Below are positions 12 to 41,299 of a DNA stretch of 64,000 bases, piece by piece. The stretch is from an uncultured Bifidobacterium sp. (GTDB taxonomy: Bacteria; Bacteroidota; Bacteroidia; UKL13-3), in assembly GCA_964529175.1 (NCBI GenBank), contig CAZGVO010000003.1, forward strand, positions 195,120 to 259,119, given 5' to 3'. The notes beneath the pieces are model-generated. The model had not been told where the DNA came from. It searched no databases and worked only from the letters and a program-made list of their open reading frames with translations. Position 1 is the stretch's first letter; each line of letters starts with the position of its first letter. The translations under genes and the position numbers were made by a program.

Positions 12-1007
12 ATGAACATATACGACATACTAAAGAAAAAAATTGTGATTTTGGATGGTGCAATGGGTACCATGATTCAACGACATAAATTGGAAGAAGC
101 TGATTTTAGGAATGAAGCTTTGGCAAATCACGCGCATCCTTTAAAAGGAAATAATGATCTACTTTCAATTACTCGTCCTGAAATTATTAAAGGCATTCAT
201 CGTTTGTATTTTGAAGCAGGCGCAGATATTGTTGAAACCAATACTTTTAGTGGAACCACTATTGCGCAAGCCGATTATCATTTAGAACATTTGGTAGATG
301 ACATCAATTATTACTCAGCAAAAATAGCCAAAGAGGTAGCCGATGAAATGACTGCCAAAGAACCACATAAACCAAGATTTGTGGCTGGTGCTATGGGACC
401 AACTAACAGAACTTTATCTATAAGCCCAGATGTAAACGACCCAGGTTATAGAGCTACTACTTTTGACGAATTGGTAAAAGCATATAAACAACAAGCTATC
501 AAATTAATTGAAGGTGGTGTAGATATTTTATTGATTGAAACCATTTTTGATACCTTAAATGCAAAGGCTGCCTTATTTGCTGTTGATGAAGTTTTTGAAG
601 AACTTGGAAAACATTATCCAGTAATGATTTCAGGAACTATTACGGATGCATCTGGCAGAACATTATCGGGTCAAACAACGGAGGCATTTTTAATTAGTAT
701 GCAACATGCGCCATTGATGAGTATTGGCTTAAATTGTGCATTAGGAGCAAGTGCTTTACGTCCTTATTTACAAGTAATGTCAACACATTCGCCATTTTAT
801 GTAAGTGCGTATCCAAATGCAGGATTGCCTAATGAGTTTGGACAATACGATGAAAGCCCTGCTGCTATGGCAAAACAAGTGGAAGAATTCTGCAAAGAAG
901 GATTGGTAAATATTTTAGGTGGCTGTTGCGGAACTACTCCTGATCACATCAAAGCTATTGCAGAAATGGCAGCGAAGTATGAACCGAGGATTATAGTTAA
1001 TAGTTAA
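12..1007 (+). CDS. Homocysteine S-methyltransferase domain protein, the N-terminal homocysteine-binding module of a split cobalamin-dependent methionine synthase
   Basis: The 331-aa ORF starts with ATG at 12. Its sequence matches the Hcy-binding barrel of MetH/MmuM, with motifs DGAMGT and [11 protein letters not shown]. It lies immediately upstream of the remaining MetH domains. Confidence 0.85.
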
Positions 1008-1075
1008 TAGACCATGGACCATAGAAAGTTTATGGTTAAGAGACCTTGGACCATAGAAGATTTATGGACAATAGT
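1008..1075. repeat. Palindromic repeat cluster (family GACCATGG/CCATAG) left of the four-helix-bundle gene
   Basis: The sequence is tagaccatggaccatagaa...gaccttggaccatagaa. It overlaps the last codons (IVNS, stop) of the upstream ORF. Confidence 0.55.
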
Positions 1076-1113
1076 TTGAATAATTACTTATACTAAAACA
1101 AGGAAACTATAGC

Positions 1114-1464
1114 ATGTTTAAGTTCGAAAATTTAGAAGTTTGGAAAAAGTCGATTGAGTTAGTTGTAAAGGTTGAAAGCGTAGTAAAAAAATTCCCAAAA
1201 GAAGAAATTTATGTGCTTACATCTCAAATGAAAAGAGCTTGTGATTCAATTTCTTTAAACATAGCTGAAGGCTCTCAAGGACAGTCTAATCCTGAATTTT
1301 CTAGATTTTTAGGTTATGCAATGCGCTCTTGCATAGAGGTTGTAGGCTGTATTTACATTGCTCAAGCAAGAAAAATAATTGATGAAGAAGATTTTAAAGA
1401 TATTTATAATGATTGTGAAACATTAGTAAAAATGATCCAATCGCTGAGAAACAAAATTAAGTGA
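1114..1464 (+). CDS. Four-helix-bundle protein (23S rRNA intervening-sequence protein family, TIGR02436-like)
   Basis: The 116-aa protein carries the characteristic N-terminus FENLEVWKKSIELVV...ISLNIAEGS. It is flanked on both sides by short palindromic repeats. Confidence 0.75.
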   Translation: MFKFENLEVWKKSIELVVKVESVVKKFPKEEIYVLTSQMKRACDSISLNIAEGSQGQSNPEFSRFLGYAMRSCIEVVGCIYIAQARKIIDEEDFKDIYNDCETLVKMIQSLRNKIK

Positions 1465-1467
1465 GTA

Positions 1468-1604
1468 GTTTATGGACGATAGTCAATGGTAGATGGACGA
1501 TAGACCATAGACTATGGTCCAATATAATAAAACAAAAAATACCATTGTCTATCGACTATAGTCTATAAACTATTGTCTATCGTCCATGGTCTATCAACAA
1601 AAAT
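1468..1604. repeat. Palindromic repeat cluster right of the four-helix-bundle gene
   Basis: The motifs are ggacgatagaccatagactatggtc and ctatcgtccatggtctatc. These are mutually inverted and enclose a nested palindrome, ccattgtctatcgactatagtc. Confidence 0.55.
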
Positions 1605-1606
1605 AA

Positions 1607-4279
1607 ATGATCAAAGATTATACATTACGCCTTTCGGGCTTGGAGCCATTGGTAATTACTAAAGATACCAATTTTGTAAATGTGGGAGAAAGAACCAATG
1701 TAACGGGTTCTAAAATGTTTTTACGCCTTATACGTGAAGGTAATTTTGAAGAAGCTTTGGCTGTTGCTCGTCAGCAGGTAGAAGGCGGTGCGCAAATTAT
1801 CGACATCAATATGGATGAAGGAATGATTGATGGTGTGGAATCAATGGTTCGTTTTTTAAATTTGATTGCATCTGAACCAGATATTTCTCGCGTTCCTATC
1901 ATGATTGATTCTTCTAAATGGGAAATTATAGAAGCAGGATTAAAATGTGTGCAAGGTAAATGTGTGGTAAATTCTATTTCGCTAAAAGGTGGCGAAGAAG
2001 AATTTATCCGCCAAGCAAAAATTGTAAAACGTTTTGGAGCAGCAGTAATTGTAATGCTTTTTGACGAACAAGGACAAGCAGATAACTACGAACGTAGAAT
2101 AGAAATTGCAGAAAGAGCTTATCGAATCTTAACGGAAAAAGTTCATTTCCCTGCGGGTGATATTATTTTTGACCCTAATATTTTTCCAGTGGCTACCGGC
2201 ATGGAAGAGCACAGAAAAAATGCTTTAGATTTCTTTAACGGAACAAAATGGATTAAAGAAAATTTGCCAGGTGCAAAAGTTAGTGGTGGCGTTTCAAACG
2301 TTTCTTTTTCATTCAGAGGAAACGATAAAGTGCGCGAAGCCATGCACTCAGCATTTTTATTTCATGCCATCAATAACGGAATGGATATGGGTATTGTAAA
2401 TCCAAGTCAATTGGAAGTTTACGATCAAATAGATAAAGAATTATTAGAACATGTAGAGGATGTTTTATTAGATAGAAGAGACGATGCAACGGAACGTTTA
2501 TTGGAACTAGCCGAACGTGTTAAAGGAAAAGGAAAAGAAACTGCGGTTGACAACGAATGGCGCAAAGGAACAGTTCAAGAGCGTTTGAGTCATGCTTTAA
2601 TAAAAGGAATTGTTGAGTTTGTAGAAGCAGATACCGAAGAGGCAAGGTTAATTTACGACAAACCACTTGAAGTGATTGAAGGCCCTTTAATGGCCGGAAT
2701 GAACATTGTGGGTGATTTGTTTGGTGCTGGAAAAATGTTTTTACCGCAGGTAGTTAAAAGTGCACGTGTAATGAAAAAAGCCGTGGCTGTTTTGATGCCT
2801 TACATGGAAGAAGAAAAACGCAAAAATGGCAACATGACTACCAACCAAGGTAAAATATTGATGGCAACTGTTAAAGGCGATGTGCATGATATTGGAAAAA
2901 ATATTGTAGGTGTGGTTTTGGCTTGTAATAACTACGAAATTATTGACATTGGTGTAATGGTTCCTGCCGATAAAATTTTGGAAACTGCCATTAAAGAAAA
3001 TGTAGATGTAATTGGTTTAAGTGGATTAATTACACCAAGCTTGGACGAAATGGTGCATGTTGCCAAAGAAATGGAACGTTTAGGAATGAAAATACCATTA
3101 TTAATTGGAGGTGCTACCACCAGCCGTGCGCACACAGCAGTAAAAATTGACCCTGTTTACAGCGGACCAGTTGTACATGTGTTAGATGCAAGTAAAAGCG
3201 TGCCTGTGGCGGCAAGTTTAATTAGTCCTGACCAGCGACCAGCTTCGGAAAAGAAATTTAAAGACGAGTATGAACAATTTAGAATTGATTATAAAAACCG
3301 TAAAAAAGATAAAAACTCGGTTGATTTAGCAAAAGCAAGAACCAATAAAATTCCTGTAAGTTTTGATAATATAGTTGCACCTAAATTTTTAGGAACAAAA
3401 GTGTTTGATAATTTCCCCTTGGAAGAATTGCGCCAACGCATTGATTGGACTCCTTTCTTTTTAACATGGGAATTAGTAGGTCGTTATCCTGCCATTTTTG
3501 ATGATGAAATAGTTGGTGTAGAAGCCAAAAAATTATTTGACGATGCCAATAAAATGCTCGATAAAGTAATTAACGAAAAACTACTTACCGCACGCGGTGT
3601 AATTGGTTTTTATGAAGCAAATTCTGAAGGTGATGATATAATTATTTCCAACAACGGACAACCAACAACTTTCAACTATTTGCGCCAACAAGGCGAAAAA
3701 GCTGATGGACAACCTTACTTATGTTTGGCAGATTTTGTTGCTCCGAAAGAAAGTGGCAAAAAAGATTATTTAGGCATGTTTGCCGTAACAGCAGGAATTG
3801 GAATTGAGCCTTTGGTAGAAGCTTACGAAAAAGACCATGACGATTACAATAGCATTATGATTAAAGCCATTGCCGATAGATTGGCCGAGGCTTTTGCTGA
3901 AAAAATGCACGAATTGGTGAGAAAAGAATATTGGGGTTTTGCACCTAACGAGCAATTAACCGATGATGAAATAATCAGAGAAAAATACAATAGCATTCGC
4001 CCTGCGCCAGGTTACCCTGCCTGCCCAGACCATACCGAAAAACGTAAGTTGTTTGACATTTTGCAAGCTGAAACCAATGCAGGAATTACCTTAACGGAAA
4101 ACTTTGCCATGTATCCGGCTTCGGCAGTAAGTGGTTTTTATTTTGCCAATGAGGCAAGTAAATATTTTGCGGTAGGTAAAATTCAAAAAGACCAAGTTGA
4201 AGAATATGCCAAACGCAAAAACGTAAGCATTGACTACGTTGAAAAATGGTTAGCTCCTAATTTGGGATATGATAATTAG
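1607..4279 (+). CDS. metH: Methionine synthase (B12-dependent) carrying the pterin-binding, cobalamin-binding and AdoMet-activation domains
   Basis: The 890-aa protein begins RLSGLEPL...[12 protein letters not shown], which is colinear with E. coli MetH from the Hcy/pterin interdomain linker onwards. It contains the DxHDIGK B12-binding motif and the C-terminal activation domain. Confidence 0.9.
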
Positions 4280-4478: not shown

Positions 4479-4653
4479 CTAAGCAATCTCAAGTTATGTT
4501 TGATAATTGCTACTCGCTTGAGATTGCTTCACTATGATCACAATGACGTTTGTTGCTGATTGATGAAAACTTTGACATAGTTTATGTTAATTTATTAAAG
4601 GAAGATGCTTACAGCATAACCTAGTGTGAAGTTTGGAGTGTTGATTGCGAAAT
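4479..4653. repeat. Copy 1 of a conserved intergenic element; a second copy lies at 14801-15059
   Basis: The core starts with cttgagattgcttc and ends with ggaagatgcttacagcatRaccWagtgYgaagttYggagtRttgattgYgaaat. It is roughly 80% identical to copy 2 over about 150 nt. The core is preceded by a perfect 13-bp inverted-repeat stem, ctaagcaatctcaag...cttgagattgctt. Confidence 0.6.
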
Positions 4654-4692: not shown

Positions 4693-5442
4693 TTATTTCA
4701 CTTTACGGCTAATTAAATTCAATAATGTATCCAACTTATCTGTTGATACTGATATTTGGTGATGTTTATTTACCAATGCATATCCCCCATCATTTCTTAC
4801 ATATTCAGTTATATAATTTATATTAACTATATACGATTTATGACTTCTGAAAAAGAATGGAGTATCAGCTAAAATATCCTCATAAGTTTTAAGGCTTTTA
4901 CTGGCTAAAACTTCGGTTTCATTGTTTAAAATAATGCGTGTATAAGCACCATCGGCTTTAAAAAACAATATATCGTTTATATCAATAAATTTTATAGACC
5001 CTGTAGTATAAATAGCTAATTTCCTTTGTTGTGTGGTGTTTGATAAGTTATCTTTTAAAATGCCAAAATTTTGCTTGTGATTTTGTTTTCTAAAACGTTC
5101 CAGTGCAGTTTCTAAATCAGCAATTTCAATAGGCTTTAGTAAATAATCGATGGCCGAAAACTTAAACGCTTGAATGGCATATTGGTTATAAGCTGTGGTA
5201 AAAATTACTGAAAAATTTATTTCCTCATCGTTAAAAAACTCCAATAACTCCAAACCGCTGTGTCCTGGCATTTCTATGTCTAAAAACACCAAATCAGGAT
5301 TGAGCTTTCGAATTGCTTTTACACCAGTAGGTAAATCTTTACAGCTTTCTACAATGGTTATATCGTTACAATATTCATTAAGCATGCCTTCCAATAAGGT
5401 GCGAGCCATTTTTTCATCATCTATAATTACAGCTTTGTACAT
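4693..5442 (-). CDS. LytTR-family two-component response regulator
   Basis: The 249-aa protein has an N-terminal receiver domain (IIDDE...FLDIEMPG) and a C-terminal LytTR DNA-binding domain. The start codon is ATG. Confidence 0.85.
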   Translation of the reverse strand: MYKAVIIDDEKMARTLLEGMLNEYCNDITIVESCKDLPTGVKAIRKLNPDLVFLDIEMPGHSGLELLEFFNDEEINFSVIFTTAYNQYAIQAFKFSAIDYLLKPIEIADLETALERFRKQNHKQNFGILKDNLSNTTQQRKLAIYTTGSIKFIDINDILFFKADGAYTRIILNNETEVLASKSLKTYEDILADTPFFFRSHKSYIVNINYITEYVRNDGGYALVNKHHQISVSTDKLDTLLNLISRKVK

Positions 5443-5451
5443 GTGTTAGTT

Positions 5452-8340
5452 TTAAGTTAGGGGTATGGTTAGTGTTACGGTAGTTCCTGTTGCATTTCCA
5501 ATTTCGTTGTAATTATCGGTAATAATTACGGCTACAGGCTTGTTTTTACTTTGATTTAAAATTTCTAAACGTTTTTTATTGGCTTGGGTAGAAAAAGACT
5601 GATGCTTACTATCTTTTATTTTATTCAATTGTTCGGAACGTTTACGGCCCACTCCATTATCGTTAATAGTTACTATCAAATTATTTTCAATACAATCAAA
5701 TACAACAGATAAATTTTTCTTTCCTTCCTTGTGAAGCAAGCCATGTTTAATAGCATTTTCTACATATGGCTGCACCAACATGGGTGGTATTTTATCCATT
5801 TCTTTATCTAAATCTACACAAATTTTTATTTCAAAGTAAAAGTCGTCCTCAAAACGCATTTGTTCCAAAGCAAGGTATAGATTAAGTGCTTCTATTTCTT
5901 CGCCTATGGTTATGGTATCTTTTTCACTCATTTCAAGTATCATACGTGTTAGTTTCGAAAACTTTGACAGGTAATTGCTTGCATTTTTTTTATCGTTAAT
6001 AAAAATATATGATTGAATGGTATTGAGCGCATTGTAAAAAAAATGAGGATTCATTTGCGACTTGATAGAAGTTAATTTTGATTTATTTAACTCATTTTCC
6101 AAAGTCATTTTTTCGGTTATTAGTTTATTCTTTTTTATTAACAAACTAATTTGCCATTTATAATATCCTAGTCCTGATATAGTTAAAACTGCAACTATTA
6201 ATAACAAAAACCACCATTGTAACCAAAAAGGTTTATTAATTTTAAAATTTACAATAGCATTGGTAAGTAAGGTGTTATTAATTTTAAACTGAATGGTATA
6301 ATTACCTGGCGAGAGCGAGGCAAACTGAAGAGAACGCATATTGGGCATGGTACTAACCCAGTTTTCGTTGTTTATTTTGTAAGCAATATTTTGGTGCTGA
6401 AATTGAGCATAATTAAGCAAAGCATAATTAATAATAATATTGTTTTCTTGGTACGATAACGACTCGCTTATGGAGGCATACTGCTTGCCGTTTATTTGAA
6501 AATTTTCTATTACAAAATTAGGCTTAACTTCCAATTTATTTATTCCATTTATTGTTACACTTATTATGTTATTATGTGTTAAAATATGAAGTTGATTCCC
6601 CTCTAAAATAAAATCATTTATTTCGCTTGTTTTTAGCTGTATTGATAATTGATAAATGGTTTTATAGATGTTTTCTGTATCAATAATTATAAATTTATCA
6701 TTACCCAAAATACACAAGTAATTACCAAAAGCTTTTATTTTTTTCACTTCTTTTATATCAATATTTGGTAAGTTATTAAGTGTATTAAATAAAGTATCGT
6801 TTGTAATGGTAATTAACTCACCTTTAGTAGTTAGTGCCAATATAAACGATTTAAAAGCTATTAACTTCGAAACAAAAACACTTTGGTTGTTTTGCTTTAT
6901 TTCAGTTTGATTATAAATGGTTTGTTTATGTAGACCAATATTTGAACCGCAATAAATAGCATTTTCAATTGGACTATATGCTACTGTTTTGGCCCTGATA
7001 CTATTTATAAACCTGGCCACCAAATCATTCCCTGCTTTTAGTTTTTTGTTATAAAAATCATCCCATTTTGATGGAATATTTTTATTGGCAATTGGCGAAA
7101 TAACCAAATTAGCGGAACCACTTGTGGCCATTGCATAATATTTATGATCAATTTTTACTATTGATTTTAAAGCAAAATCATCATGTTTAATAAAACCAAA
7201 TGGATTTGATTTAAAAATACTAGTACCTAACGAAGAAGTAAACAATACATCTAAACTCGAATCGTAATAAGTATAATAAATTGATGCATTGCTAGGATTG
7301 GTAAATAGTTTTCTAAGAGGTTCAAAGTTGTTATTCAATGACACTACCTCGTTATTCTGAGTAAAAAGTACATAGCCTCCTTTTGTTTTTTCAAACAAAC
7401 TTGGTTCATAATTTTCTATGGCAACAAATGTGGTTTGAAGCGAAGGAATAATGAATATACCCTTATTAACCGATGATACCCAATAATTATTATCTCTATC
7501 TTTTATAACGCATGAAAGACTTTGATTTTTAAAATAATGTTTAAATCCATTTTTACCAAATACGTGAGCACCATTAGGGGCTAAAATCCAATAATCATTA
7601 TCAATTAAATGCAAATTTTGAATAAGTTTTGGCCCTCTTATTTTAAAAGCAGGTTGCGACTTATCTTTTTCAGTAAAATACAGTTGTTCGTTTTCATTTT
7701 CTCGAGCAGTTAAAACCAAGTTTTTATTGGTAGCATATATTTGATTGTTTTTTTCATTGCTTGCAATTTGTACCCGAGTAGCTTCTAATTTTAAATTAGA
7801 AGTAGTTTTATAAAGCACCTTATTGGCTGTAAAATAATAGTTGTTGTTAAAACAAGCAGTATTATTTATATCTTTAATAGTAGAAAAAAAAATGGGTATT
7901 GTTTTAATTAATTGTAGGGTATTTATATTGTAAACATCAATTCCATTGTATTGTAATAAGAATAAATGATTATTGGTTATTCCATAAGCAAAAAAGCCAA
8001 TTGGTTTGTTTTGTTTTAATGCATGTAGCGAATCATTTTCAATGTAGTAACAGTAACCATCAAAATTTTGGTACCAAATTCTGCCTAAAACATCTTCTTT
8101 TAAATTACTACCAGCTGCTGAGGTTTGATTTGGGTTTTTGTAGGTTTTAAAATTATACCCATCGTACCTGCTTATACCCTCTTGGCTTGCTATCCAAATA
8201 TACCCTTTTTTATCTTGTAAAATATTATATACATTATTTGATGGTAAACCTTTTGTATCGTTCAATAGGGTAAAATACGGCTGTTGAGCCTTAACTAAAA
8301 TGGGCAGTACAAATGATAAAATAATTACAATCGCTCTCAA
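5452..8340 (-). CDS. Sensor histidine kinase of the LytS/YehU type with a periplasmic two-component-regulator beta-propeller and a Y_Y_Y domain
   Basis: The 962-aa protein has a signal peptide, repeated propeller-like blades, a Y_Y_Y domain and one transmembrane segment. These are followed by a His_kinase domain (NPHFFYNALN) and an HATPase_c domain. The start codon is TTG. The gene is adjacent to the LytTR regulator. Confidence 0.8.
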   Translation of the reverse strand: MRAIVIILSFVLPILVKAQQPYFTLLNDTKGLPSNNVYNILQDKKGYIWIASQEGISRYDGYNFKTYKNPNQTSAAGSNLKEDVLGRIWYQNFDGYCYYIENDSLHALKQNKPIGFFAYGITNNHLFLLQYNGIDVYNINTLQLIKTIPIFFSTIKDINNTACFNNNYYFTANKVLYKTTSNLKLEATRVQIASNEKNNQIYATNKNLVLTARENENEQLYFTEKDKSQPAFKIRGPKLIQNLHLIDNDYWILAPNGAHVFGKNGFKHYFKNQSLSCVIKDRDNNYWVSSVNKGIFIIPSLQTTFVAIENYEPSLFEKTKGGYVLFTQNNEVVSLNNNFEPLRKLFTNPSNASIYYTYYDSSLDVLFTSSLGTSIFKSNPFGFIKHDDFALKSIVKIDHKYYAMATSGSANLVISPIANKNIPSKWDDFYNKKLKAGNDLVARFINSIRAKTVAYSPIENAIYCGSNIGLHKQTIYNQTEIKQNNQSVFVSKLIAFKSFILALTTKGELITITNDTLFNTLNNLPNIDIKEVKKIKAFGNYLCILGNDKFIIIDTENIYKTIYQLSIQLKTSEINDFILEGNQLHILTHNNIISVTINGINKLEVKPNFVIENFQINGKQYASISESLSYQENNIIINYALLNYAQFQHQNIAYKINNENWVSTMPNMRSLQFASLSPGNYTIQFKINNTLLTNAIVNFKINKPFWLQWWFLLLIVAVLTISGLGYYKWQISLLIKKNKLITEKMTLENELNKSKLTSIKSQMNPHFFYNALNTIQSYIFINDKKNASNYLSKFSKLTRMILEMSEKDTITIGEEIEALNLYLALEQMRFEDDFYFEIKICVDLDKEMDKIPPMLVQPYVENAIKHGLLHKEGKKNLSVVFDCIENNLIVTINDNGVGRKRSEQLNKIKDSKHQSFSTQANKKRLEILNQSKNKPVAVIITDNYNEIGNATGTTVTLTIPLT

Positions 8341-8697
8341 ATCGTGGTTTTAATGGTTAACAAATATAGATTGATGTAATAAAAAGATAATTGGTATTTT
8401 ACCAAACCTTAAAAAACACCAATCAAATTGCCAATGTAGTTAATAAAGCAAAAATCTCAAAAATATTAAAAATAACATACTCCAAAACAGAAAGAAAGCG
8501 CCAAATTGTAAATAATTGATAATAAGTATATTACATTAGCATCAAAAGCTAAATTCATAATAATTGTAAAGCAACTGTGTTAATAAAACTTCACCAACTC
8601 AAATAGCTTTTTCATTTTAAAAACAATCGGTTTTATAAACTTACAAAATTTTAAACCACTCCTTGTTTCATTTTTGATCCGATAAAAAAATCACATA

Positions 8698-11600
8698 ATG
8701 AAAAAAATACTATTATTATTTTATTGCTTATGCACCATTTATGGATTGCAAGCACAAACACCCATTACCAATTGGGAGTATTCAATTGGCGATAATGGAG
8801 GAATTGAGCAAATTAAATCCTCGGCTTACGATGAAGCCGGAAACTTGTATGTAGCAGGCCATTTTTATGGAACGGTAGATTTAGACCACGGAACTGGAGC
8901 CTATTTACTAAGCGCTGCCGGAAGTTACGATGCTTTTGTGGCCAAATACAATTCGTTTGGTCAAATTTTATGGGCAGTACGTCTGGGAGGAACCATGGCC
9001 GAGTCAGTTAATCATTTATCGGTAGCAAATGGCTATGTGCTTTTAACAGGTTTTTTTCAAGGAACCATGAATGTATATGCTCCAAATTTTACAGCACCTT
9101 TAACCTCAGTTTCCAGTTCGTCCGATATTTTTATAGTACGTTTAGGAACAGATGGTTTATTTTATGCTAATGGCGCTTTTAAAATTGGTATGGGTGGAAA
9201 CGATGATGGAAAATGTGTAAAATCTGATGCTGCTGGAAACATTTATTTATCAGGCTTGTACTCAAGTCCTAATAATAATACCAATGTAAACTTTAACGTA
9301 CTTGGTGGTACCAATAATTTATTGGCTGCTGGTAGTGAAGATGGTTTTATAGTAAAATACAATAGCAATTTTGTATTACAATGGGTAAAATCGTACGGTG
9401 GAGGTTCTTTTAATGATGCAGTATTAACCATGGATATAGATAATAACCAAAATGTATATGCAGCTGGTTATTTTAATGGTACAAATGCAAGTTTTAACAA
9501 TAGTATATTCCTTACATCAGTTGGAGGTGCCGATGCTTTTATTTCAAAAATTGCAGCTAATGGAAATACCATATGGGCTAAACGAATAGGTGGTGGAAAT
9601 GGCGATGTAATTTCTACCATTAAACTTAATGGAAAAGGTGTAATATATGCTGGCGGTAACTTTAATGGATTAGCGAATTTAAACCCAAATGGAACCGCAC
9701 AAAACTTTACCGCTGTAGGTGGCGATGCCTTTATAAGTAAACTTGATACCAACCAAGCAACCGCTTTATGGATTAAACAATTTGGGGGAAGCGGGCCTGA
9801 TAATTTAAATGGACTTGATTTAGATACATTAGGAAATGTGTATACAACTGGCTCTTTTATAGGTTCGGCTGAGTTTCCTATTGGCATTTCAGCATCGGCA
9901 TTAAATAGTGGCAGTTGGAAAGATATTTTTGTAAGTAAACTAAATACCAATGGTGGTTTTGTTTGGTCCAAATCAATGGGTACTATCTTAGAAGATGATG
10001 GCTACAGTATTTCAGTTACTGCAAATGGTAACTATGCTTATATTACAGGAAGCAATCCTACATTTGGGCATGGTTACATGGCCAAAATTGGTGCTTGTGG
10101 CGAGTTAAAACCCATAATTGGTCTAACAAAATTATGTTCAAATACACAAAGGATTTATGCTGTAGATTCAGTTATAGGAGCTACTTCGTATGTTTGGACT
10201 TTACCTGCTGGTTGGGTTGGTACATCTAATACACGCAGCATTACAGTTACTCCAAGTGCTAACAGCGGAAATATTACTGTTAATGCCATTACTGCTTGTG
10301 GAGCTGGTTTTTCTCGTTCATTAAATATTAATTATGGAACTACAAATTTAGATAATAACTTAGTAAGGTATTGGCTTGCCAATGAAAACGACAACAATAA
10401 AGACATTAAGAATAACTTTGGCTTAACTTTGGTAAACACAGTTAAAGATACTGCTATGCACGGAACAGTTAATGGGGCTTATCGTATTTCAAATAATGCT
10501 GGTTTTATTCAATTGCAACCCACTGCCAATTTACCAACAGGCGCTACTTCTATTTCGTTATGGTATTATTACCAAAGTAATGGTGGAGGTGCAAATGTGG
10601 TATTAGGAAGTAACGGAACTGCTTTACCTGCATCGCATCCACTTATGTTAATTGATAATGCTTCGGCTACTTTATTCCCTTGGTCTAATACAGGTGCTGC
10701 CATAGGTAGTGGTGTTACCATAGCTCAAAATACTTGGCATCATATAGTATTAACGCGCAATGGAGCCAACTTTACTTTTTATGTAAATGGTGTTTTGGCC
10801 TACAGTGGCAATAATTTATCTGCTTCTAATTTTGATAGAATTGGAAACAATCGTCCTGGATTTGAAATACAAGGCGCTACAGGTAAGTTTGACGATATTA
10901 AAATTTATAATACCATTATCACCGAAGCACAGGTCAAATCGCTTTACGACTTTGGAAGCATTAAATCTGTTGATTTACTGACATCAGGTTGTAAAAATAA
11001 AACCATTTCATTTCAAGCTTTTTCAAGTAATAACAATGTCACTTACGGATGGAAGTTAAATGGAACGGTAGTAGGAAGTAGTTTACCAACTTTTGTTAAA
11101 ACGGCTGCATTAACCGATTCAGCAATTTCTGTTAGCGTAAATAGCCAATGTTTTGAAGAAACTATTTCTAAAAGTTTTAAAATTAATAGTATAGATAGTG
11201 TACAAATTATTAGCACTGATTGTGGCATTAAAGTTGGTAATAAAACATATATTGCTTCAGGCAATTATATTGATACTTTAGTTAATCAATTTGGCTGCGA
11301 TAGTATTGTATTTTTAAACCTAACTATTAGTAATAATCAACTTACCAATTTAAGCACTAATTTAATTAGGTATTGGACCTTAAATGCACAAGATTCAGCC
11401 AAGGATTTAACCAATAATTTTGTATTAAACAAATCATCGGGAATACTTTTTACCTCCGATAGGTTTGGAAACCCAAATACAGCCCAATTTATTCCGGCAT
11501 CGCCAAGCCAACAATTTACACCGGCAGTAAATATTCCAGCCAATGATTTTACCATTTCATTTTGGTATCAATTTACTTCCTCCACTTCAACCAATACCAG

Positions 11601-14600
11601 AGGTTTATTAACCAATACATTAGGAACCAATGCAGGTTATTATTTATATGCCGATGCCAATGGTAATTTATTATCAAACAATAATTTGGGAACAAGCACA
11701 AGTGCTAATTTTCAGTTTCAAAATAATAATTGGTATCATTTAACTTTTTCGTTAAATAATTTTGGAGTAGCTAAAATATACGTTAATGGCGAGTTGAAAC
11801 TTACCAACAATAATATGAGTTTGACTGGTATTGTTAGAATTGGACGAGGAGTTGGTACTTCAAATACTCCTGGTGTGGGTAGTTACGATGATATTAAAGT
11901 TTATAATACCGTTATTTCTGATGCCGATGTTTTAAAAATTTATGATAGACCAAGTATTATTAGTCGTCCTTTTTTGACTAATTTTTGTCAAAATAATTCA
12001 ACCAATTTTGCTTATAAAGTAAGCAGTTCAAACAATTCTTCTTATCAGTTTTTAAAAAATAATACAAGTGTAAGTAACGATACTTTTTATGTTGCAAATA
12101 ACCTAACCACAACCGATACTTTGGTAACATTTAAAGTGTTTTCAAAATGTGGTTATGAGGAGTTTAAAACACGTTTAAATGTTCAACCTACTAATATAAA
12201 TGTAATTGATTCATTTTGTGGTAGTTATGCTTACAATGGTAAAACTTACACAAATGCAGGAACCTATTACGACACCTTAGCTAATTTAAATGGATGTGCT
12301 GTAAATGTTCAATTAAATTTAACTTTTAAAGCTGGGGTAAATTTAAGTAATAATTTAACCCATCATTTTACACTAAACAATACTGAAAACATCAATTTAG
12401 TAAACTCAACCGCAGGTATAACAATATCTTCAACAGCTTTATCAATTGCTGGTAGAACAAATATTACAGCTACAGGTCGCTCTATTAATGCAGTAGCACA
12501 AAGTATGCAAATAGCTAGTTTACCTAACAGTAATTTAACGGTATCATTATGGTATCAGCGAACTACAAATAGTTATACTGGTGCAAGAACAATTATAGCC
12601 AATACTCAAGCCAATGGTAATATTGCAAAAATGGTTTATGCCAATTCTACTGGGGGAGTGCTTTTAGGTAATAGCACTACTACAGTTGGTGTTCCAACAG
12701 GTTTTACACTTAGCATTGGTGTTTGGTATCATATTGTTTATCAAGTAGCCAGTAATGGCGATGCAAAACTTTTTATCAACGGAAATTTAGTAAGTAGTAT
12801 TACAGGATTGCCATTAAATACCATCGCAATAATTGGTAATAGAAACGATGGAAATGAGCCTGGTATTGGGAACTATGATGATATTAAAATATATAACAAA
12901 ATTTTATCAGCAGATGAAATTTCTAAATTATACAAAATACCTTCTTTGATTGCTAAACCATCTCTTATGCAAGTTTGCGAAGGCAGTAGTGCACTACTAA
13001 CTTACCATTTTAGTGGAAATACGGGTACTAGATATGAATATAAAAAGAATGGAGTAACTTTATCTGCCGATTCGTTTTTACAAATAAATAATACCAACTT
13101 AAACGATACTTTATTTGAGTTTACAATCAATAATAGTTGCGGTTTTGAGCAATATACAACTAAAGTAAATGTTGCCCCTGCTGCTGGTGTTGGACAAAGT
13201 TTAGCTTATAGCAAAACAACCAATAGAATTACTGCCACAACAAGTTTTACTAGATACAAATTATTTAGAAATGGTGTTGTTATTGATTCTAGTAATACAA
13301 CAGGCAATATAAATTTCTTAACTACTTTATGTGGTAATTATGTTGCCCATTACAGTAATATTGGTTCTGCTAATTGCCCAGCAATTTCGCCTGTTCTAAA
13401 AATAGATTTAGATACATTAACCTTAAATACTAAAATATGTGCTGGTAAAATTTATGTATTTGGAAGCCAACAATTGAATACACCTGGCACTTATTACAGA
13501 ACAACTACTAGCACTAACGGCTGCGATAGCATAATAAAACTTAACCTTACTTTGGCTAATTCAAGCACGGCTAGTGTTAATAGAGTAAGTTGTGGTAGTT
13601 TAGTAATTTATGGTAAGACTTACACTCAAACAGGTCAATATAAAGATACATTAATAAATACTGCTGGTTGCGATAGTATTGTAACTTTAAACTTAACTAT
13701 AAACACTGGCGGACCTGCTATTAATAATATTGTTCAATCAACTTGTAACAACTTTGTTTTAAATGGAAAAACATACACCAATACTGGCATATACCGCGAT
13801 ACCTTATTTGCAGCAAGTATTACTGGTTGCGATAGCATTTTGGTACTTAATTTAACCAATTTAAAAAATGGGTTTAATCAAAATATAATTGCTTGCAAAA
13901 GCTATGTCTTTAAGGGAGTAACCATTACACAAAGTGGCACATATCGTGATACTTTAACCAATACAGCAGGTTGCGATAGTATTGTGGTTTATAACATAAA
14001 CATAACTACGGTAAATAAAATAGTAACCAAAACCGGAAATATATTAACGGCATCTGCTACAAATGCCATATACCAATGGATAAATTGTACTACCAATTTG
14101 CCAATAGCCAATGCTAATATGCAAAGTTATACGCCAACGGTTTCGGGTAGCTACAAAGTAATAATTACTCAAAATGGTTGTATTGATACATCAGCTTGTA
14201 CCAATGTAATCATCATTAATTGTAATTTACAGCTAACTCATAATGTACTGAATCCAACCGATACCATTCGTTGTAAGCAAGTTAAAGTAAATATAACCAA
14301 TGGTTCATTGCCAATTGCTTTAAAACTAACTTGGAGCACCAATATAATTGGCTTGAATTTAAACATAACCGATTCAGCTTATACCTTTAACGATGCATGC
14401 CCTGAAACTTACAAATTGGTTGCAACTGATAATAATGGTTGCAAAGATTCTATTAATTTCACTATCAATGAGCCAACAATTGGTGTAAATGATATCAATG
14501 AAAATACATTTAGCATGTATCCAAATCCTGCAAATAAAATTTTGATTATTAACAATTTAAGCAAAGAGTCTCAAATCAATATTTTTGATATAACAGGTAG

Positions 14601-14733
14601 AATAATTTATGCTGAAAATATATTGACCTCAAATACTAAGCTTGATATTGAAAATTGGAAAGATGGAATTTATACTGTGCAAGTAATAACCGAAGGTAAA
14701 ATTGCCAACAGAAAGCTTGTTATAGCTAAATAA
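8698..14733 (+). CDS. T9SS type-A C-terminal-sorting-domain cargo protein with an SBBP beta-propeller, three LamG/concanavalin-like modules and a ~42-aa two-Cys repeat
   Basis: The 2011-aa protein has a signal peptide. N-terminal SBBP-like repeats recur (DAFVAKYNSFGQILWAVRLGG and similar). Three copies of a LamG-like module each end ...YDDIK(I/V)YN.(I/V)(I/L)S..(E/D)(V/I)..LY. At least six repeats follow the pattern C...NGKTYT..G.Y.DTL.N..GCDSIV.LNLT. The C-terminus is a Por_Secre_tail (YPNPANKILII...GIYTVQV). Confidence 0.8.
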   Translation: MKKILLLFYCLCTIYGLQAQTPITNWEYSIGDNGGIEQIKSSAYDEAGNLYVAGHFYGTVDLDHGTGAYLLSAAGSYDAFVAKYNSFGQILWAVRLGGTMAESVNHLSVANGYVLLTGFFQGTMNVYAPNFTAPLTSVSSSSDIFIVRLGTDGLFYANGAFKIGMGGNDDGKCVKSDAAGNIYLSGLYSSPNNNTNVNFNVLGGTNNLLAAGSEDGFIVKYNSNFVLQWVKSYGGGSFNDAVLTMDIDNNQNVYAAGYFNGTNASFNNSIFLTSVGGADAFISKIAANGNTIWAKRIGGGNGDVISTIKLNGKGVIYAGGNFNGLANLNPNGTAQNFTAVGGDAFISKLDTNQATALWIKQFGGSGPDNLNGLDLDTLGNVYTTGSFIGSAEFPIGISASALNSGSWKDIFVSKLNTNGGFVWSKSMGTILEDDGYSISVTANGNYAYITGSNPTFGHGYMAKIGACGELKPIIGLTKLCSNTQRIYAVDSVIGATSYVWTLPAGWVGTSNTRSITVTPSANSGNITVNAITACGAGFSRSLNINYGTTNLDNNLVRYWLANENDNNKDIKNNFGLTLVNTVKDTAMHGTVNGAYRISNNAGFIQLQPTANLPTGATSISLWYYYQSNGGGANVVLGSNGTALPASHPLMLIDNASATLFPWSNTGAAIGSGVTIAQNTWHHIVLTRNGANFTFYVNGVLAYSGNNLSASNFDRIGNNRPGFEIQGATGKFDDIKIYNTIITEAQVKSLYDFGSIKSVDLLTSGCKNKTISFQAFSSNNNVTYGWKLNGTVVGSSLPTFVKTAALTDSAISVSVNSQCFEETISKSFKINSIDSVQIISTDCGIKVGNKTYIASGNYIDTLVNQFGCDSIVFLNLTISNNQLTNLSTNLIRYWTLNAQDSAKDLTNNFVLNKSSGILFTSDRFGNPNTAQFIPASPSQQFTPAVNIPANDFTISFWYQFTSSTSTNTRGLLTNTLGTNAGYYLYADANGNLLSNNNLGTSTSANFQFQNNNWYHLTFSLNNFGVAKIYVNGELKLTNNNMSLTGIVRIGRGVGTSNTPGVGSYDDIKVYNTVISDADVLKIYDRPSIISRPFLTNFCQNNSTNFAYKVSSSNNSSYQFLKNNTSVSNDTFYVANNLTTTDTLVTFKVFSKCGYEEFKTRLNVQPTNINVIDSFCGSYAYNGKTYTNAGTYYDTLANLNGCAVNVQLNLTFKAGVNLSNNLTHHFTLNNTENINLVNSTAGITISSTALSIAGRTNITATGRSINAVAQSMQIASLPNSNLTVSLWYQRTTNSYTGARTIIANTQANGNIAKMVYANSTGGVLLGNSTTTVGVPTGFTLSIGVWYHIVYQVASNGDAKLFINGNLVSSITGLPLNTIAIIGNRNDGNEPGIGNYDDIKIYNKILSADEISKLYKIPSLIAKPSLMQVCEGSSALLTYHFSGNTGTRYEYKKNGVTLSADSFLQINNTNLNDTLFEFTINNSCGFEQYTTKVNVAPAAGVGQSLAYSKTTNRITATTSFTRYKLFRNGVVIDSSNTTGNINFLTTLCGNYVAHYSNIGSANCPAISPVLKIDLDTLTLNTKICAGKIYVFGSQQLNTPGTYYRTTTSTNGCDSIIKLNLTLANSSTASVNRVSCGSLVIYGKTYTQTGQYKDTLINTAGCDSIVTLNLTINTGGPAINNIVQSTCNNFVLNGKTYTNTGIYRDTLFAASITGCDSILVLNLTNLKNGFNQNIIACKSYVFKGVTITQSGTYRDTLTNTAGCDSIVVYNINITTVNKIVTKTGNILTASATNAIYQWINCTTNLPIANANMQSYTPTVSGSYKVIITQNGCIDTSACTNVIIINCNLQLTHNVLNPTDTIRCKQVKVNITNGSLPIALKLTWSTNIIGLNLNITDSAYTFNDACPETYKLVATDNNGCKDSINFTINEPTIGVNDINENTFSMYPNPANKILIINNLSKESQINIFDITGRIIYAENILTSNTKLDIENWKDGIYTVQVITEGKIANRKLVIAK

Positions 14734-14751: not shown

Positions 14752-14793
14752 AACAGCCTCCATAAAATAAAATTTATGGAGGCTGTTTTGTTT
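14752..14793. terminator. Rho-independent terminator after the T9SS cargo gene
   Basis: The stem is acagcctccat...atggaggctgt, followed by a T-run. Confidence 0.6.
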
Positions 14794-14800
14794 ACTATGC

Positions 14801-15059
14801 TAAGCAATCGCTAGCGTCCCGCTAGTGAGGTTTTAGCGAAGCCTCAGGCAACAATCTAGCTTCGTAAAGACGTTTAATTAAACGTCTCTACCAAATACAA
14901 AACTTGCTTGAGATTGCTTCTCTGCATTCTACATGACCTTTGCTGTTGATTCAAAAAAAACTTTGTCAAAGTTAAGTATAATGGAAAACAATAAGTTAAT
15001 GCAAGGAAGATGCTTACAGCATGACCAAGTGCGAAGTTCGGAGTATTGATTGTGAAATT
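14801..15059. repeat. Copy 2 of the conserved intergenic element; copy 1 lies at 4479-4653
   Basis: The same cttgagattgcttc...ggaagatgcttacagcat...ttgattgtgaaat core is present. The left stem is split by an insertion of about 100 nt that has its own hairpins, gacgtttaattaaacgtc and ctagcg..cgctag. Confidence 0.6.
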
Positions 15060-39880: not shown

Positions 39881-41299
39881 TTAAAAGCCTTTCATTACCA
39901 CTTTTAAATTTCCTTGGGTTATAATATTTATATTTAACGAATTTGGTAATATATAAATATTTGCTGGTTCAATATTTTTTATAACACCATTTACATCAAT
40001 TGATGTAGACCATTGTTTATTAATGGCCTCGTTCGATGTTTTGATGGCTTGGTTTAATTGATCGGCTATTGAAAACACCATTTGCTTTTCCATGTTTTCT
40101 CTAAATTTTTTTGAGTTAACCAACCAAGCTGCACTTTTAACCAAAATATCGCGGGTTTTTAAATCAAAGTCAAATTGCCTTATTTCTATTGACTTATTAC
40201 TTGGATTATAAACTGGAACACCTGTAGCATAAACTATTCCTTTTATGTTTTTCCCTAATTTCCCTTTTTGCACTTTACCATCTAAATCAATGGCTATCAT
40301 TATTTTATTACCATACGGAAAGGCTTTAGCCTCATTTATATTTATTTTATACTCGCTGCCCTCTAATACCATTGGTTTATCGGCAAATTGTTTGGTAAGC
40401 GTTTCGTTTATTTGATCAAAAGCAATGGCAGCATTTAAATTTATTTTTACATCATCGCTAAAGTTACTTACTTGGCGCAATGGGGGTAAATTTACATTAA
40501 ACGAATCGTTTTTAGGCTTATAACCCGATATTACTTCTACAATACTTGATACACCAAGCTTTATTTGCATTTCATCTGGAGTATAAGTAATTGGAGTTAT
40601 AAAAATATTTTTAGGATTTAGTAACAACCACGCTTTGTAAGCCGAGTCGATTAAAAATGGTTCTGCCAAGGTTTTCCATGAGTCGCCAACCATTTTTTTA
40701 ATATCTACATTTTTAGGAACTTCTTGGTCAATTTTAGTAGCCATTTTATTAACCTGCCCTTGAATAATAGCGCCAAAAAGTTTAGGCAAATCTAAAGTTG
40801 TTAGCCCAAGGTTAATTACAGGTAAATCGTCCCATAAAATTTTTCCTTTGCTGTTTAAGTTTAAATTCCAATCGCGGTCAATAACTGGCGAAGTATTAAA
40901 TACTACTGTTAAATTTAACGATTGACTAATAGGTTTTTCAAAACCACCAAATACTTTTATATTGTACACAAAATCAATGTGTAAGGGTGCAGTAATACTT
41001 AAACCATTATTGGCAGTACTTACCGTAAAGGGTGTTCGTTTTAAAACAGTTAGCTTTAAATTATCGTTTCCATTGTCTTCAAACTTATCATCTTTATAAA
41101 CTTCTAATGGAAATTTTTTATTAACTGACGCTGCCAAACCAGCTACATTAATATGAATTGGCAAACCAATTATAGATGTAGGCTTAGGAGGAATAACTAC
41201 TGGCACATTAGGCGGTTTGGGTGCTGTAATTTTTTGTGTTTTACATGCATTAACCATTATTGCCACCAATGCCATTATATAAAATAATATTTTTTTCAT
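39881..41299 (-). CDS. Putative lipoprotein (DUF4403-like)
   Basis: The 472-aa protein has a signal peptide with a lipobox Cys (MVNAC). The family assignment is tentative. Confidence 0.45.
   Translation of the reverse strand: MKKILFYIMALVAIMVNACKTQKITAPKPPNVPVVIPPKPTSIIGLPIHINVAGLAASVNKKFPLEVYKDDKFEDNGNDNLKLTVLKRTPFTVSTANNGLSITAPLHIDFVYNIKVFGGFEKPISQSLNLTVVFNTSPVIDRDWNLNLNSKGKILWDDLPVINLGLTTLDLPKLFGAIIQGQVNKMATKIDQEVPKNVDIKKMVGDSWKTLAEPFLIDSAYKAWLLLNPKNIFITPITYTPDEMQIKLGVSSIVEVISGYKPKNDSFNVNLPPLRQVSNFSDDVKINLNAAIAFDQINETLTKQFADKPMVLEGSEYKININEAKAFPYGNKIMIAIDLDGKVQKGKLGKNIKGIVYATGVPVYNPSNKSIEIRQFDFDLKTRDILVKSAAWLVNSKKFRENMEKQMVFSIADQLNQAIKTSNEAINKQWSTSIDVNGVIKNIEPANIYILPNSLNINIITQGNLKVVMKGF

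What the first reader, a model, noticed from the sequence alone, without database searches (positions are those of the whole stretch)
4693..14733. A propeller/Y_Y_Y LytS-type kinase and LytTR regulator lie divergently next to a 2011-aa T9SS SBBP/LamG cargo gene
The kinase has the periplasmic beta-propeller plus Y_Y_Y sensor typical of Bacteroides hybrid two-component glycan sensors. Here it is fused to a LytS-type His_kinase core and paired with a separate LytTR regulator rather than an AraC output. The only plausible target nearby is the divergently transcribed giant secreted protein. Its 357-bp upstream region contains spaced aattgtaaa direct repeats. This could be a surface-polymer sensing circuit that controls an adhesin.
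Basis: inference. Interest (0 to 1): 0.5.

Follow-up and report, generated by a model that had tools for sequence, protein, structure and literature searches.

The report
Sensor system controlling a secreted surface protein
A two-component sensor, built from a Bacteroides-type sugar-sensor head on a LytS/LytTR signalling core, sits back to back with a giant secreted surface protein, and conserved DNA repeats between them suggest that it switches on both that protein and itself, an arrangement found across Bacteroidota and apparently unstudied.

Summary
The three genes and their domains are as described. The regulator (4693-5442, -) has REC and LytTR domains. The kinase (5452-8340, -) has an HTCS-type double-propeller/Y_Y_Y periplasmic domain, one TM helix and a LytS-type core. 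The 2011-aa cargo (8698-14733, +) has SBBP, PKD, three LamG domains and a T9SS tail.

The 'aattgtaaa' repeats are chance: 90% of shuffles give a repeated 9-mer, and one copy is lost in close relatives.

Eighty related loci show a different operator. Units resembling GTTTAYGAAAC repeat every 21 bp (z=23 in 35 independent intergenic regions). The proximal unit lies 30-32 nt upstream of the Bacteroidota -7 box (TAnnTTTG). This geometry occurs mirrored in front of both divergent genes. In the window the sites are 8586-8641 (cargo side) and 8396-8451 (kinase side, weaker).

The neighbour upstream of the kinase carries a T9SS tail in 36 of 73 loci, against 7% of other genes (p=1e-19).

Best reading: an agr-like circuit in which the phosphorylated LytTR regulator activates the cargo gene and its own operon. 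The signal is unknown. Two close relatives have lost the cargo but keep an intact kinase and regulator, so other targets may exist.

This is a new variant of known kinds, and I found no paper describing it. Interest 0.6.

The parts
4693..5442 (-). Response regulator: REC plus LytTR DNA-binding domain, 249 aa. Starts 9 nt after the kinase stop, so the two probably form an operon.
   Evidence: Pfam Response_reg 76.8 bits and LytTR 62.6 bits. Best NCBIfam match is BtsR at 157.7 bits, below its 246-bit cut-off. D54 and the acidic pocket are present. A homolog follows the kinase in 74 of 77 assessable loci.
5452..8340 (-). Sensor histidine kinase, 962 aa, TTG start. N-terminal signal or anchor helix; periplasmic double beta-propeller plus Y_Y_Y (about aa 20-703, nt 6232-8283); TM helix (about aa 705-728, nt 6157-6228); long coiled helix; LytS-type DHp with H766 and CA domain (aa 761-962, nt 5455-6060).
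   Evidence: Pfam; model secondary structure; Foldseek match to BT4663, BT3049 and BT4673; profile against PDB; invariant QMNPHFFYNALN motif. No 5TM-Lyt or GAF hit.
8361..8368 (-). Predicted -7 promoter box of the kinase-regulator operon: TATATTTG on the minus strand, a perfect match to the Bacteroidota TAnnTTTG consensus. It lies 20 nt upstream of the TTG start.
   Evidence: TTTG lies 31 nt downstream of the kinase-proximal operator unit. The same 30-31 nt offset occurs in 21 of 34 related loci.
8396..8451 (+). Kinase-side candidate LytTR operator (autoregulation). Three units at 21-bp period, read on the + strand: ATTTTACCAAACCT (8396-8409), CACCAATCAAATTG (8417-8430), AGTTAATAAAGCAA (8438-8451).
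   Evidence: Unit scores 9.9 and 7.5 bits. The pair scores 7.9 bits, above the 95th percentile (4.9) but just under the 99th (8.26) of shuffles. It sits 55 nt from the start codon, as in the family. 29 of 50 related intergenic regions have a significant mirrored site here. This is weaker than the cargo-side site.
8586..8641 (-). Cargo-side candidate LytTR operator. Three direct repeats at 21-bp period, read on the minus strand: AGTTTATAAAACCG (8628-8641, proximal), TTAAAATGAAAAAG (8607-8620), AGTTGGTGAAGTTT (8586-8599).
   Evidence: The pair scores 15.7 bits, above the 99th percentile of shuffles. Positionally conserved in L001, L002, L004-L010, L020 and L023. Family-wide offset-21 signal: z=21.9 in all regions, z=23.3 after de-duplication. 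40 of 50 intergenic regions are significant, with the first unit 49-62 nt from the start codon.
8669..8676 (+). Predicted -7 promoter box of the cargo gene, CATTTTTG, 21 nt upstream of the ATG. No TTG-type -33 element is visible upstream, which suggests dependence on an activator.
   Evidence: TTTG begins 31 nt after the proximal operator unit. The same 31-32 nt offset occurs in 25 of 38 related loci.
8698..14733 (+). T9SS cargo, 2011 aa: signal peptide, SBBP beta-propeller, PKD_6, three tandem modules of about 331 aa each with a Laminin_G_3 domain, a repeat-rich C-terminal region, and a type A C-terminal sorting domain (aa 1940-2009, nt 14515-14724).
   Evidence: Pfam and NCBIfam. Internal repeats spaced 990-999 nt. 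Full-length homologs lie divergent to the kinase in L001, L002, L005-L007, L010, L020 and L023.
14752..14787 (+). Intrinsic terminator hairpin (15-bp stem) just after the cargo stop codon, so the cargo gene is monocistronic.

Best explanation
This is a conventional, non-hybrid two-component system. Its kinase joins the periplasmic double-propeller/Y_Y_Y sensor of Bacteroides hybrid two-component systems to a LytS-type kinase core.

Proposed mechanism:
1. A periplasmic signal (unknown; a glycan fragment by analogy with BT4663) activates autophosphorylation at H766.
2. The phosphate passes to D54 of the LytTR regulator.
3. The regulator binds arrays of two to three direct repeats (units like GTTTAYGAAAC, 21-bp period). 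The proximal unit sits a fixed 30-32 nt upstream of a Bacteroidota -7 box.
4. One array (8586-8641) activates the promoter of the giant T9SS-secreted SBBP/LamG surface protein. A mirrored, weaker array (8396-8451) activates the kinase-regulator operon itself.

The result is positive feedback plus an output gene, the same logic as the agr P2/P3 divergent promoters.

Shown here: the genes and domains, the sensor fold, the conserved repeat and promoter geometry, and the enrichment of T9SS cargo as the divergent neighbour.

Inferred: that this regulator is the protein that binds the repeats, that binding activates rather than represses, the nature of the ligand, and that the cargo is an adhesin.
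For: Domains and fold.

Conserved pairing:
- The kinase is followed by a LytTR regulator in 74 of 77 assessable loci.
- The immediate upstream neighbour is divergent in 57 of 78 loci.
- 33 of 50 complete divergent neighbours carry Pfam Por_Secre_tail.
- 36 of 73 immediate upstream neighbours carry the tail, against 60 of 875 other genes (odds ratio 13, p=1e-19).
- Loci with the SBBP/LamG cargo form one clade of the kinase tree.

Operator:
- A model-free count of 5-mer self-matches peaks only at offset 21: 212 against 37.7±8.0 expected, z=21.9, with z=5.2 at offset 42.
- In 35 de-duplicated regions the count is 165 against 24.6, z=23.3. Control divergent intergenic regions give z=1.4.
- Site positions cluster 49-62 nt from the start codon.
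- TTTG of the -7 box lies 31-32 nt from the proximal unit in 25 of 38 cargo-side sites, and 30-31 nt in 21 of 34 kinase-side sites.
- Sites outside the training set precede second and third T9SS genes upstream in L013, L014, L016, L067 and L076.

Fit to LytTR rules: repeats of 9-11 nt with 11-13 nt spacers are the general rule for LytTR regulators, and YpdB binds GGCATTTCAT repeats, which share the TTTCAT core (PMC4847170).
Against: - There is no experimental evidence, and most comparison loci are metagenome bins.
- The PWM was trained on the same intergenic regions it scores, so its enrichment figures are partly circular. The offset-21 count and the -7 box spacing are independent of it.
- The window's sites are only moderate matches: 15.7 bits on the cargo side, and 7.9 bits on the kinase side, which is below the 99th percentile. 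Scores of that size occur by chance in 64 kb.
- L003 and L004 keep an intact kinase and regulator after losing the cargo. In L004 the cargo ATG has become ATA and the gene body is deleted.
- Several kinase clades have a co-directional upstream neighbour (21 of 78 loci), and 10 of 50 divergent regions lack a significant cargo-side site.
- The most conserved sensor part (aa 20-110, 59% identity) is shared across loci with unrelated cargos. This argues against a cargo-specific ligand.
Confidence: 0.68

Rival explanations
1. The kinase-regulator pair mainly controls genes elsewhere in the genome, and possibly itself. On this view the neighbouring cargo is only one dispensable member of the regulon, or a passenger in a variable spot.
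For: - L003 and L004 retain an intact kinase and regulator, with the regulator 96-97% identical, after losing the cargo.
- The L002 cargo is a mosaic: its middle part is replaced, giving 41% aa identity, while flanking genes are 98-100% identical.
- 21 of 78 loci have a co-directional upstream neighbour.
- A repeat of about 150 bp brackets the trio.
Against: - A cargo-side operator with fixed spacing to the -7 box is present in the window and in 40 of 50 divergent regions.
- The T9SS-tail enrichment has an odds ratio of 13.
- The only other PWM pairs in the 64-kb window lie inside ORFs.
- The cargo loss in L003 and L004 looks recent, because the promoter remnant is still alignable.
Confidence: 0.17
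2. The 21-bp-period repeats are bound by a different protein, or the LytTR regulator acts on them as a repressor rather than an activator.
For: No binding data exist. Bacteroidota genomes encode many LytTR regulators (PMC7440613). Control intergenic regions also show a small offset-21 excess (z=4.9).
Against: - The repeats co-occur with this regulator family across loci whose kinases are only 35-49% identical to the window's.
- The repeat architecture fits the LytTR rule.
- The sites lie upstream of the -7 box, where a -33 element would sit or further upstream. No TTG-type -33 element is visible. That is the position of an activator.
Confidence: 0.1
3. One reading: the regulator binds the spaced aattgtaaa repeats at 8504 and 8562.
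For: Both copies exist.
Against: - They are expected by chance: 90% of shuffles have a repeated 9-mer.
- The 58-bp spacing is not a LytTR spacing.
- The 8504 copy is not conserved in L001 or L002.
- Neither copy matches the family motif at 4 bits or more.
Confidence: 0.03

Closest known systems
Bacteroides hybrid two-component systems (HTCS), e.g. BT4663, BT3049, BT4673
   Same: The periplasmic sensor is homologous and has the same fold: two beta-propellers plus a Y_Y_Y domain, followed by a single TM helix.
   Different: - No fused REC or AraC output domain.
- The kinase core is LytS-type His_kinase (PF06580), not HisKA.
- The output is a separate LytTR regulator.
- The neighbour is a T9SS cargo gene, not a SusC/D polysaccharide-utilisation locus.
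LytS/LytTR two-component systems (LytSR, BtsSR/YehUT, YpdAB)
   Same: - PF06580 kinase core with a REC-LytTR regulator; BtsR is the best NCBIfam match.
- The operator consists of direct repeats with about 11-nt spacers.
- The repeats share a TTTCAT core with the YpdB site GGCATTTCAT.
   Different: - The input is a 680-aa periplasmic propeller domain, not a 5TM-Lyt/7TM membrane domain with GAF.
- The regulator scores below the BtsR and LytR equivalog cut-offs.
- The targets are secreted surface proteins, not transporters or holin-like genes.
agr-type LytTR circuits (AgrCA with P2/P3; ComDE, PlnCD)
   Same: The logic matches: a LytTR regulator has repeat pairs in a divergent intergenic region, driving its own operon on one side and an effector transcript on the other. 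The agr comparison itself comes from my own knowledge.
   Different: No peptide pheromone genes and no HPK10-type polytopic kinase. The organisms are Gram-negative Bacteroidota, and the promoters use the TAnnTTTG -7 box.
PorXY-SigP regulation of the T9SS
   Same: It is also a two-component link to type IX secretion. In that system a tail-bearing protein (PorA) is reported as a ligand of the sensor (PMC12152298, title and abstract).
   Different: PorXY controls genes for the secretion machinery through an ECF sigma factor. Its domains are unrelated (PorX carries PglZ). The target here is an individual cargo gene.

Membership tests
Hybrid two-component system (HTCS) of Bacteroides | Periplasmic double beta-propeller plus Y_Y_Y sensor domain | tested here: met
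   Profile against PDB E=2.6e-38 to 1.8e-23. Foldseek to 4A2L E=2e-29, target TM-score 0.70.
Hybrid two-component system (HTCS) of Bacteroides | Receiver domain and AraC-type HTH fused to the kinase in one polypeptide | tested here: not met
   The protein ends after HATPase_c at aa 962, with no Response_reg or HTH_18 hit. The regulator is a separate ORF.
Hybrid two-component system (HTCS) of Bacteroides | HisKA-type phosphoacceptor domain | tested here: not met
   The DHp region matches PF06580 His_kinase (80.8 bits). No HisKA hit.
LytS/LytTR two-component systems | PF06580 His_kinase plus HATPase_c core with the conserved NPHF histidine motif | tested here: met
   PF06580 80.8 bits. QMNPHFFYNALN is invariant in 30 homologs. 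HATPase_c is only weak (19.7 bits), but the fold is modelled and the profile matches 6SWJ.
LytS/LytTR two-component systems | 5TM-Lyt (PF07694) membrane input domain, often with GAF | tested here: not met
   No such Pfam hit. The model has one internal TM helix and a large periplasmic domain.
LytS/LytTR two-component systems | Cognate regulator with REC plus LytTR | tested here: met
   Conserved downstream of the kinase in 74 of 77 loci.
LytTR regulators | Operator of two or more 9-11 nt repeats separated by 11-13 nt, upstream of the target promoter | tested here: inconclusive
   A repeat architecture of this kind is strongly conserved in silico. The rule is taken from PMC4847170. Binding by this regulator is not testable with these tools.
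BtsR / LytR equivalogs (NCBIfam) | Score above the curated equivalog cut-off | tested here: not met
   BtsR 157.7 bits against a cut-off of 246. LytR 95.7 bits against 375.
T9SS type A cargo | N-terminal signal peptide plus C-terminal Por_Secre_tail / TIGR04183 domain | tested here: met
   PF18962 48.9 bits and TIGR04183 49.2 bits at aa 1940-2009. The N-terminus MKKILLLFYCLCTIYGLQAQ is read from the sequence.
T9SS type A cargo | Actual secretion by a T9SS present in the same genome | not testable with these tools
   No T9SS machinery genes were looked for in the window. A second tail-bearing ORF lies at 30679-39831.

The most novel reading that the evidence does not exclude
This kinase-regulator family may be a dedicated, phylum-wide layer of regulation for individual T9SS cargo genes. 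Each paralogous pair would sit next to its own secreted surface protein or proteins. Each would use an agr-like, self-amplifying divergent promoter pair with a fixed operator-to-promoter geometry. That would be a 'PUL-like' sensor-plus-output module for T9SS adhesins and enzymes, not for SusC/D loci. A stronger version is that the sensor reads the substrate bound or released by its cargo, or the cargo itself, as has been reported for PorA and PorY.
Probability: 0.45. Interest if true: 0.72.

Novelty: new variant of a known kind. Interest (0 to 1): 0.6.

Why it matters
How individual T9SS cargo genes are regulated is poorly understood. The papers my searches returned on T9SS regulation concern PorXY-SigP control of the secretion machinery in Porphyromonas.

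This family is widespread. It gave at least 494 loci among GTDB species representatives and 877 or more proteins in the protein search.

It offers:
- a concrete, testable operator sequence;
- a promoter geometry;
- cultured carrier strains for experiments.

If confirmed, it would show that the HTCS sugar-sensor head has been re-wired to a LytTR output that controls surface proteins in environmental Bacteroidota. It would also allow regulons to be predicted directly from genome sequence.

Tried and rejected
- The aattgtaaa repeats as operator: rejected. They are at chance level, not conserved, and wrongly spaced.
- PWM scan of the whole 64-kb window for further targets: only two pairs reached 14 bits or more (40720-40754 and 52302-52336). 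Both lie inside ORFs, and about 0.8 are expected by chance. No extra regulon member was found in the window.
- Rfam scan of the whole window: no hits. The flanking 150-bp repeat is therefore not a known RNA.
- Hypervariable sensor co-varying with the cargo: not supported. The kinase gene is uniformly about 86-90% identical in DNA to L001-L004. Only the cargo body is mosaic or lost.
- Small non-T9SS divergent ORFs as a conserved accessory family: only L012 and L021 are related. The others are singletons.
- Literature searches for this architecture or for a LytTR-T9SS cargo link found nothing relevant. The library lacks most subscription-journal papers, so this is not proof of absence.
- The sigma-70-type promoter scan is uninformative here: 63 hits against 61.5 expected. 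Bacteroidota use different promoter elements.

Full report
**1. The observation**

- The regulator (4693-5442, -) has Response_reg and LytTR domains. Its acidic pocket, D54, T82 and K103 are intact.
- The kinase (5452-8340, -, TTG start) has a strong LytS-type His_kinase domain (PF06580, 80.8 bits) and a Reg_prop repeat. Y_Y_Y and HATPase_c score below Pfam's cut-offs.
- I tested the sensor claim independently. A profile of 30 homologs (A1) hits the periplasmic domains of three Bacteroides thetaiotaomicron hybrid two-component systems: 3V9F at E=2.6e-38, 4A2L at 1.7e-33, and 3OTT at 1.8e-23. The 3OTT match covers the Y_Y_Y segment.
- An AlphaFold model (pLDDT 82.8) matches BT4663 (4A2L/4A2M) at E=2e-29, with target TM-score 0.70 over about 790 columns.
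- The model shows two propellers, a beta-sandwich (aa ~608-701), one long helix from aa 705 to 762 that spans the membrane, and the kinase core.
- The cargo (8698-14733, +) has a signal peptide, an SBBP propeller, PKD_6, three Laminin_G_3 domains in tandem modules of about 331 aa, and a type A T9SS sorting domain. A strong terminator follows at 14752-14787.

**2.

- AATTGTAAA occurs at 8504 and 8562. The window holds nine copies against 5.65 expected, and 11 of 100 shuffles reach nine.
- 90% of Markov shuffles of the 357-bp region contain some repeated 9-mer, and the region itself has three.
- The 8504 copy is absent from the close relatives L001 and L002.
- Neither copy resembles the family motif.

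**3. Relatives**

The kinase belongs to a large, uniform family.

- All of the best 120 of 877 or more protein hits are about 950-1010 aa, apart from two shorter hits, and nearly all carry Reg_prop plus His_kinase. Sources name them only generically.
- A scan of GTDB species representatives found at least 494 loci. I kept 80, each with 10-kb flanks.
- They come from Flavobacteriales, Chitinophagales, Sphingobacteriales, Cytophagales and unclassified Bacteroidia. A few bins carry obviously wrong taxon labels.
- A LytTR regulator follows the kinase in 74 of 77 assessable loci.
- The gene immediately upstream is divergent in 57 of 78 loci.
- 33 of 50 complete divergent neighbours end in Pfam Por_Secre_tail. 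My own iterated HMM gave the same count.
- Counted over gene-like ORFs, 36 of 73 immediate upstream neighbours carry the tail, against 60 of 875 other genes in the same loci. The odds ratio is 13 and p=1e-19. Genes downstream of the regulator give 23 of 360.
- The cargo types differ widely in size and domains.
- Full-length homologs of this SBBP/LamG protein lie divergent to kinases that form a single clade of the kinase tree: the window, L002, L005-L007, L010, L020 and L023. L001 belongs with them but was left out of the tree because its kinase ORF is frameshifted. Identity to the window's kinase falls to about 39%.
- The trio is therefore old and inherited vertically.

**4. The real operator**

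Reading the intergenic regions side by side showed three direct repeats next to the cargo promoter.

- A model-free test confirms them. In 50 intergenic regions, 5-mer self-matches at offset exactly 21 bp number 212 against 37.7±8.0 expected (z=21.9). Offset 42 gives z=5.2, and no other offset stands out.
- After removing related regions (35 left), the count is 165 against 24.6 (z=23.3). Divergent control regions from the same loci give z=1.4.
- An EM-refined 14-nt matrix has the consensus GGTTTAYGAAACCG, with variants GTTAGTGAAAC and GTTTTACGAAAC.
- 40 of 50 regions have a significant pair on the cargo side, with the first unit 49-62 nt from the start codon. 29 of 50 have a mirrored pair on the kinase side, and 24 have both.
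- The decisive feature is the spacing. The TTTG of a Bacteroidota -7 box (TAnnTTTG) begins 31-32 nt after the proximal unit in 25 of 38 cargo-side sites, and 30-31 nt after it in 21 of 34 kinase-side sites.
- Most of the exceptions are loci where my mechanical ORF start was called too far upstream.
- Sites that were not in the training set precede second and third T9SS genes further upstream in L013, L014, L016, L067 and L076.
- The architecture fits the published rule for LytTR regulators: 9-11 nt repeats with 11-13 nt spacers. It shares the TTTCAT core of the YpdB site GGCATTTCAT (PMC4847170).

**5. In the window**

| Feature | Cargo side | Kinase side |
|---|---|---|
| Units | 8628-8641, 8607-8620, 8586-8599 (read on the minus strand) | 8396-8409, 8417-8430, 8438-8451 (read on the plus strand) |
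| Pair score | 15.7 bits | 7.9 bits (99th percentile of shuffles is 8.26) |
| -7 box | CATTTTTG at 8669-8676 | TATATTTG, a perfect match, on the minus strand at 8361-8368 |
| Start codon | ATG at 8698 | TTG at 8340 |

- The kinase-side score alone is borderline. Its geometry is nevertheless the family's: 55 nt from the start codon, and 31 nt from the proximal unit to TTTG.
- I see no TTG-type -33 element at the cargo promoter, as expected for an activator-dependent promoter. This is read from the sequences and is an inference.

**6. Mechanism**

The best reading is a split two-component system. An HTCS-type periplasmic sensor drives a LytS-type kinase. The phosphorylated LytTR regulator then activates two divergent promoters: its own operon and the T9SS cargo gene. 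This is the logic of agr P2/P3 (that comparison is from my own knowledge).

The signal is unknown.

- By homology with BT4663 it could be an oligosaccharide.
- Among distant family members, the first two propeller blades (aa 20-110) are the best-conserved sensor part, at 59% identity. The remaining sensor segments are about 30-39% identical.
- These members sit next to unrelated cargos. This fits a shared ligand or a dimer interface better than a cargo-specific ligand.
- 'Adhesin' is a reasonable but untested label for a protein built of propeller, PKD and LamG domains.

**7. What cuts against a simple one-target model**

- In L004 the homology with the window runs through the regulator, the kinase, the whole intergenic region and 18 nt of the cargo ORF, and then stops. 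The cargo ATG has become ATA.
- In L003 the promoter region is duplicated around an insert of about 990 bp. The insert carries a 167-aa secreted ORF with its own motif pair.
- Both genomes keep an intact kinase and regulator (85-86% and 96-97% aa identity).
- In L002 the cargo is a mosaic. Only its ends are conserved, and overall aa identity is 41%, while flanking genes are 98-100% identical.
- So the cargo is a fast-changing, dispensable gene, and the regulator may have further targets. I could not search for them, because only flanks were available.
- The window itself shows no other credible site.

**8. Comparison with known systems, and novelty**

- It is not an HTCS. It has no fused REC or AraC domain, no HisKA domain, and no SusC/D neighbours.
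- It is not a typical LytS system, because it lacks the 5TM-Lyt/GAF input.
- The regulator scores below the BtsR and LytR equivalog cut-offs.
- It works like a LytTR circuit of the agr type.
- Four full-text searches found no paper on this architecture or on a LytTR link to T9SS cargo. The library lacks most subscription-journal papers, so this is weak negative evidence.
- I rate it a new variant of known kinds. The architecture is common in databases but apparently uncharacterised. The operator, the promoter geometry and the T9SS association are new predictions from this analysis.

**9. Caveats**

- ORFs in the loci were called mechanically.
- Most loci are metagenome bins.
- The motif matrix was trained on the regions it scores.
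- No binding or expression data exist.

**Scores.** Confidence in the regulatory link is about 0.68. Confidence in a glycan ligand is much lower. Interest is 0.6.

Noticed in passing
window 4512-4653 and 14902-15058: A direct repeat of about 150 bp (72% identity over 157 nt) brackets the whole regulator-kinase-cargo trio, 10.4 kb apart. The same element occurs in several copies in L003 (5258-6189, 13893-13934) and downstream of the regulator in L001, L002 and L004. It has no Rfam match. It may be a repetitive extragenic element that promotes rearrangement at this variable spot.
   Followed up: partly
window 30679-39831 (-): A second giant T9SS cargo ORF (3050 aa, TTG start) with BNR_assoc_N and Por_Secre_tail domains. 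No kinase-regulator pair lies next to it, and no motif pair was found near it in the window scan.
   Followed up: partly
L004 9657-9780; L003 8585-8724 and 9714-9795: Close relatives have lost the cargo but keep its promoter and operator. In L004 the ATG has become ATA and the gene body is deleted. L003 has an 82-bp duplication of the operator region around a ~990-bp insert that carries a 167-aa signal-peptide ORF with its own motif pair. It looks like cassette exchange at a regulated promoter.
   Followed up: partly
L002 1854-9677 compared with window 8698-14733: The cargo is a mosaic between near-identical genomes. The signal peptide and the C-terminal ~1.3 kb are 88-90% identical in DNA, while the middle is replaced (2607 aa against 2011 aa). 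Flanking MetH and S9 peptidase are 98-100% identical in aa. This suggests recombination or diversifying selection on the surface protein.
   Followed up: no
window 12-4279: Methionine synthase appears to be split. An S-methyl_trans ORF (12-1007) and a pterin/B12/activation-domain ORF (1607-4279) are separated by a 23S rRNA-intervening-sequence-family ORF (1114-1464). The insert is present in L003, divergent in L004, and undetected in L002.
   Followed up: no
L079 5505-5539; L029 3856-3890; L034 1735-1769: Strong motif pairs (26-27.5 bits) lie between the kinase and the regulator (L079), or just inside the mechanically called kinase start (L029, L034). The latter probably means those kinase starts were called too far upstream. 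The L079 site hints at an internal promoter for the regulator.
   Followed up: no
L064, L068, L078: One kinase clade has a co-directional upstream gene and no LytTR regulator within 10 kb downstream. These are orphan kinases of the family.
   Followed up: no
L001, L010, L039, L052, L062, L073 record titles: Several bins that carry this Bacteroidota locus are labelled Methylacidiphilales, Bifidobacteriaceae, Hydrocarboniphaga or Asaia. These are probably mis-binned or mis-labelled contigs in the public records.
   Followed up: no
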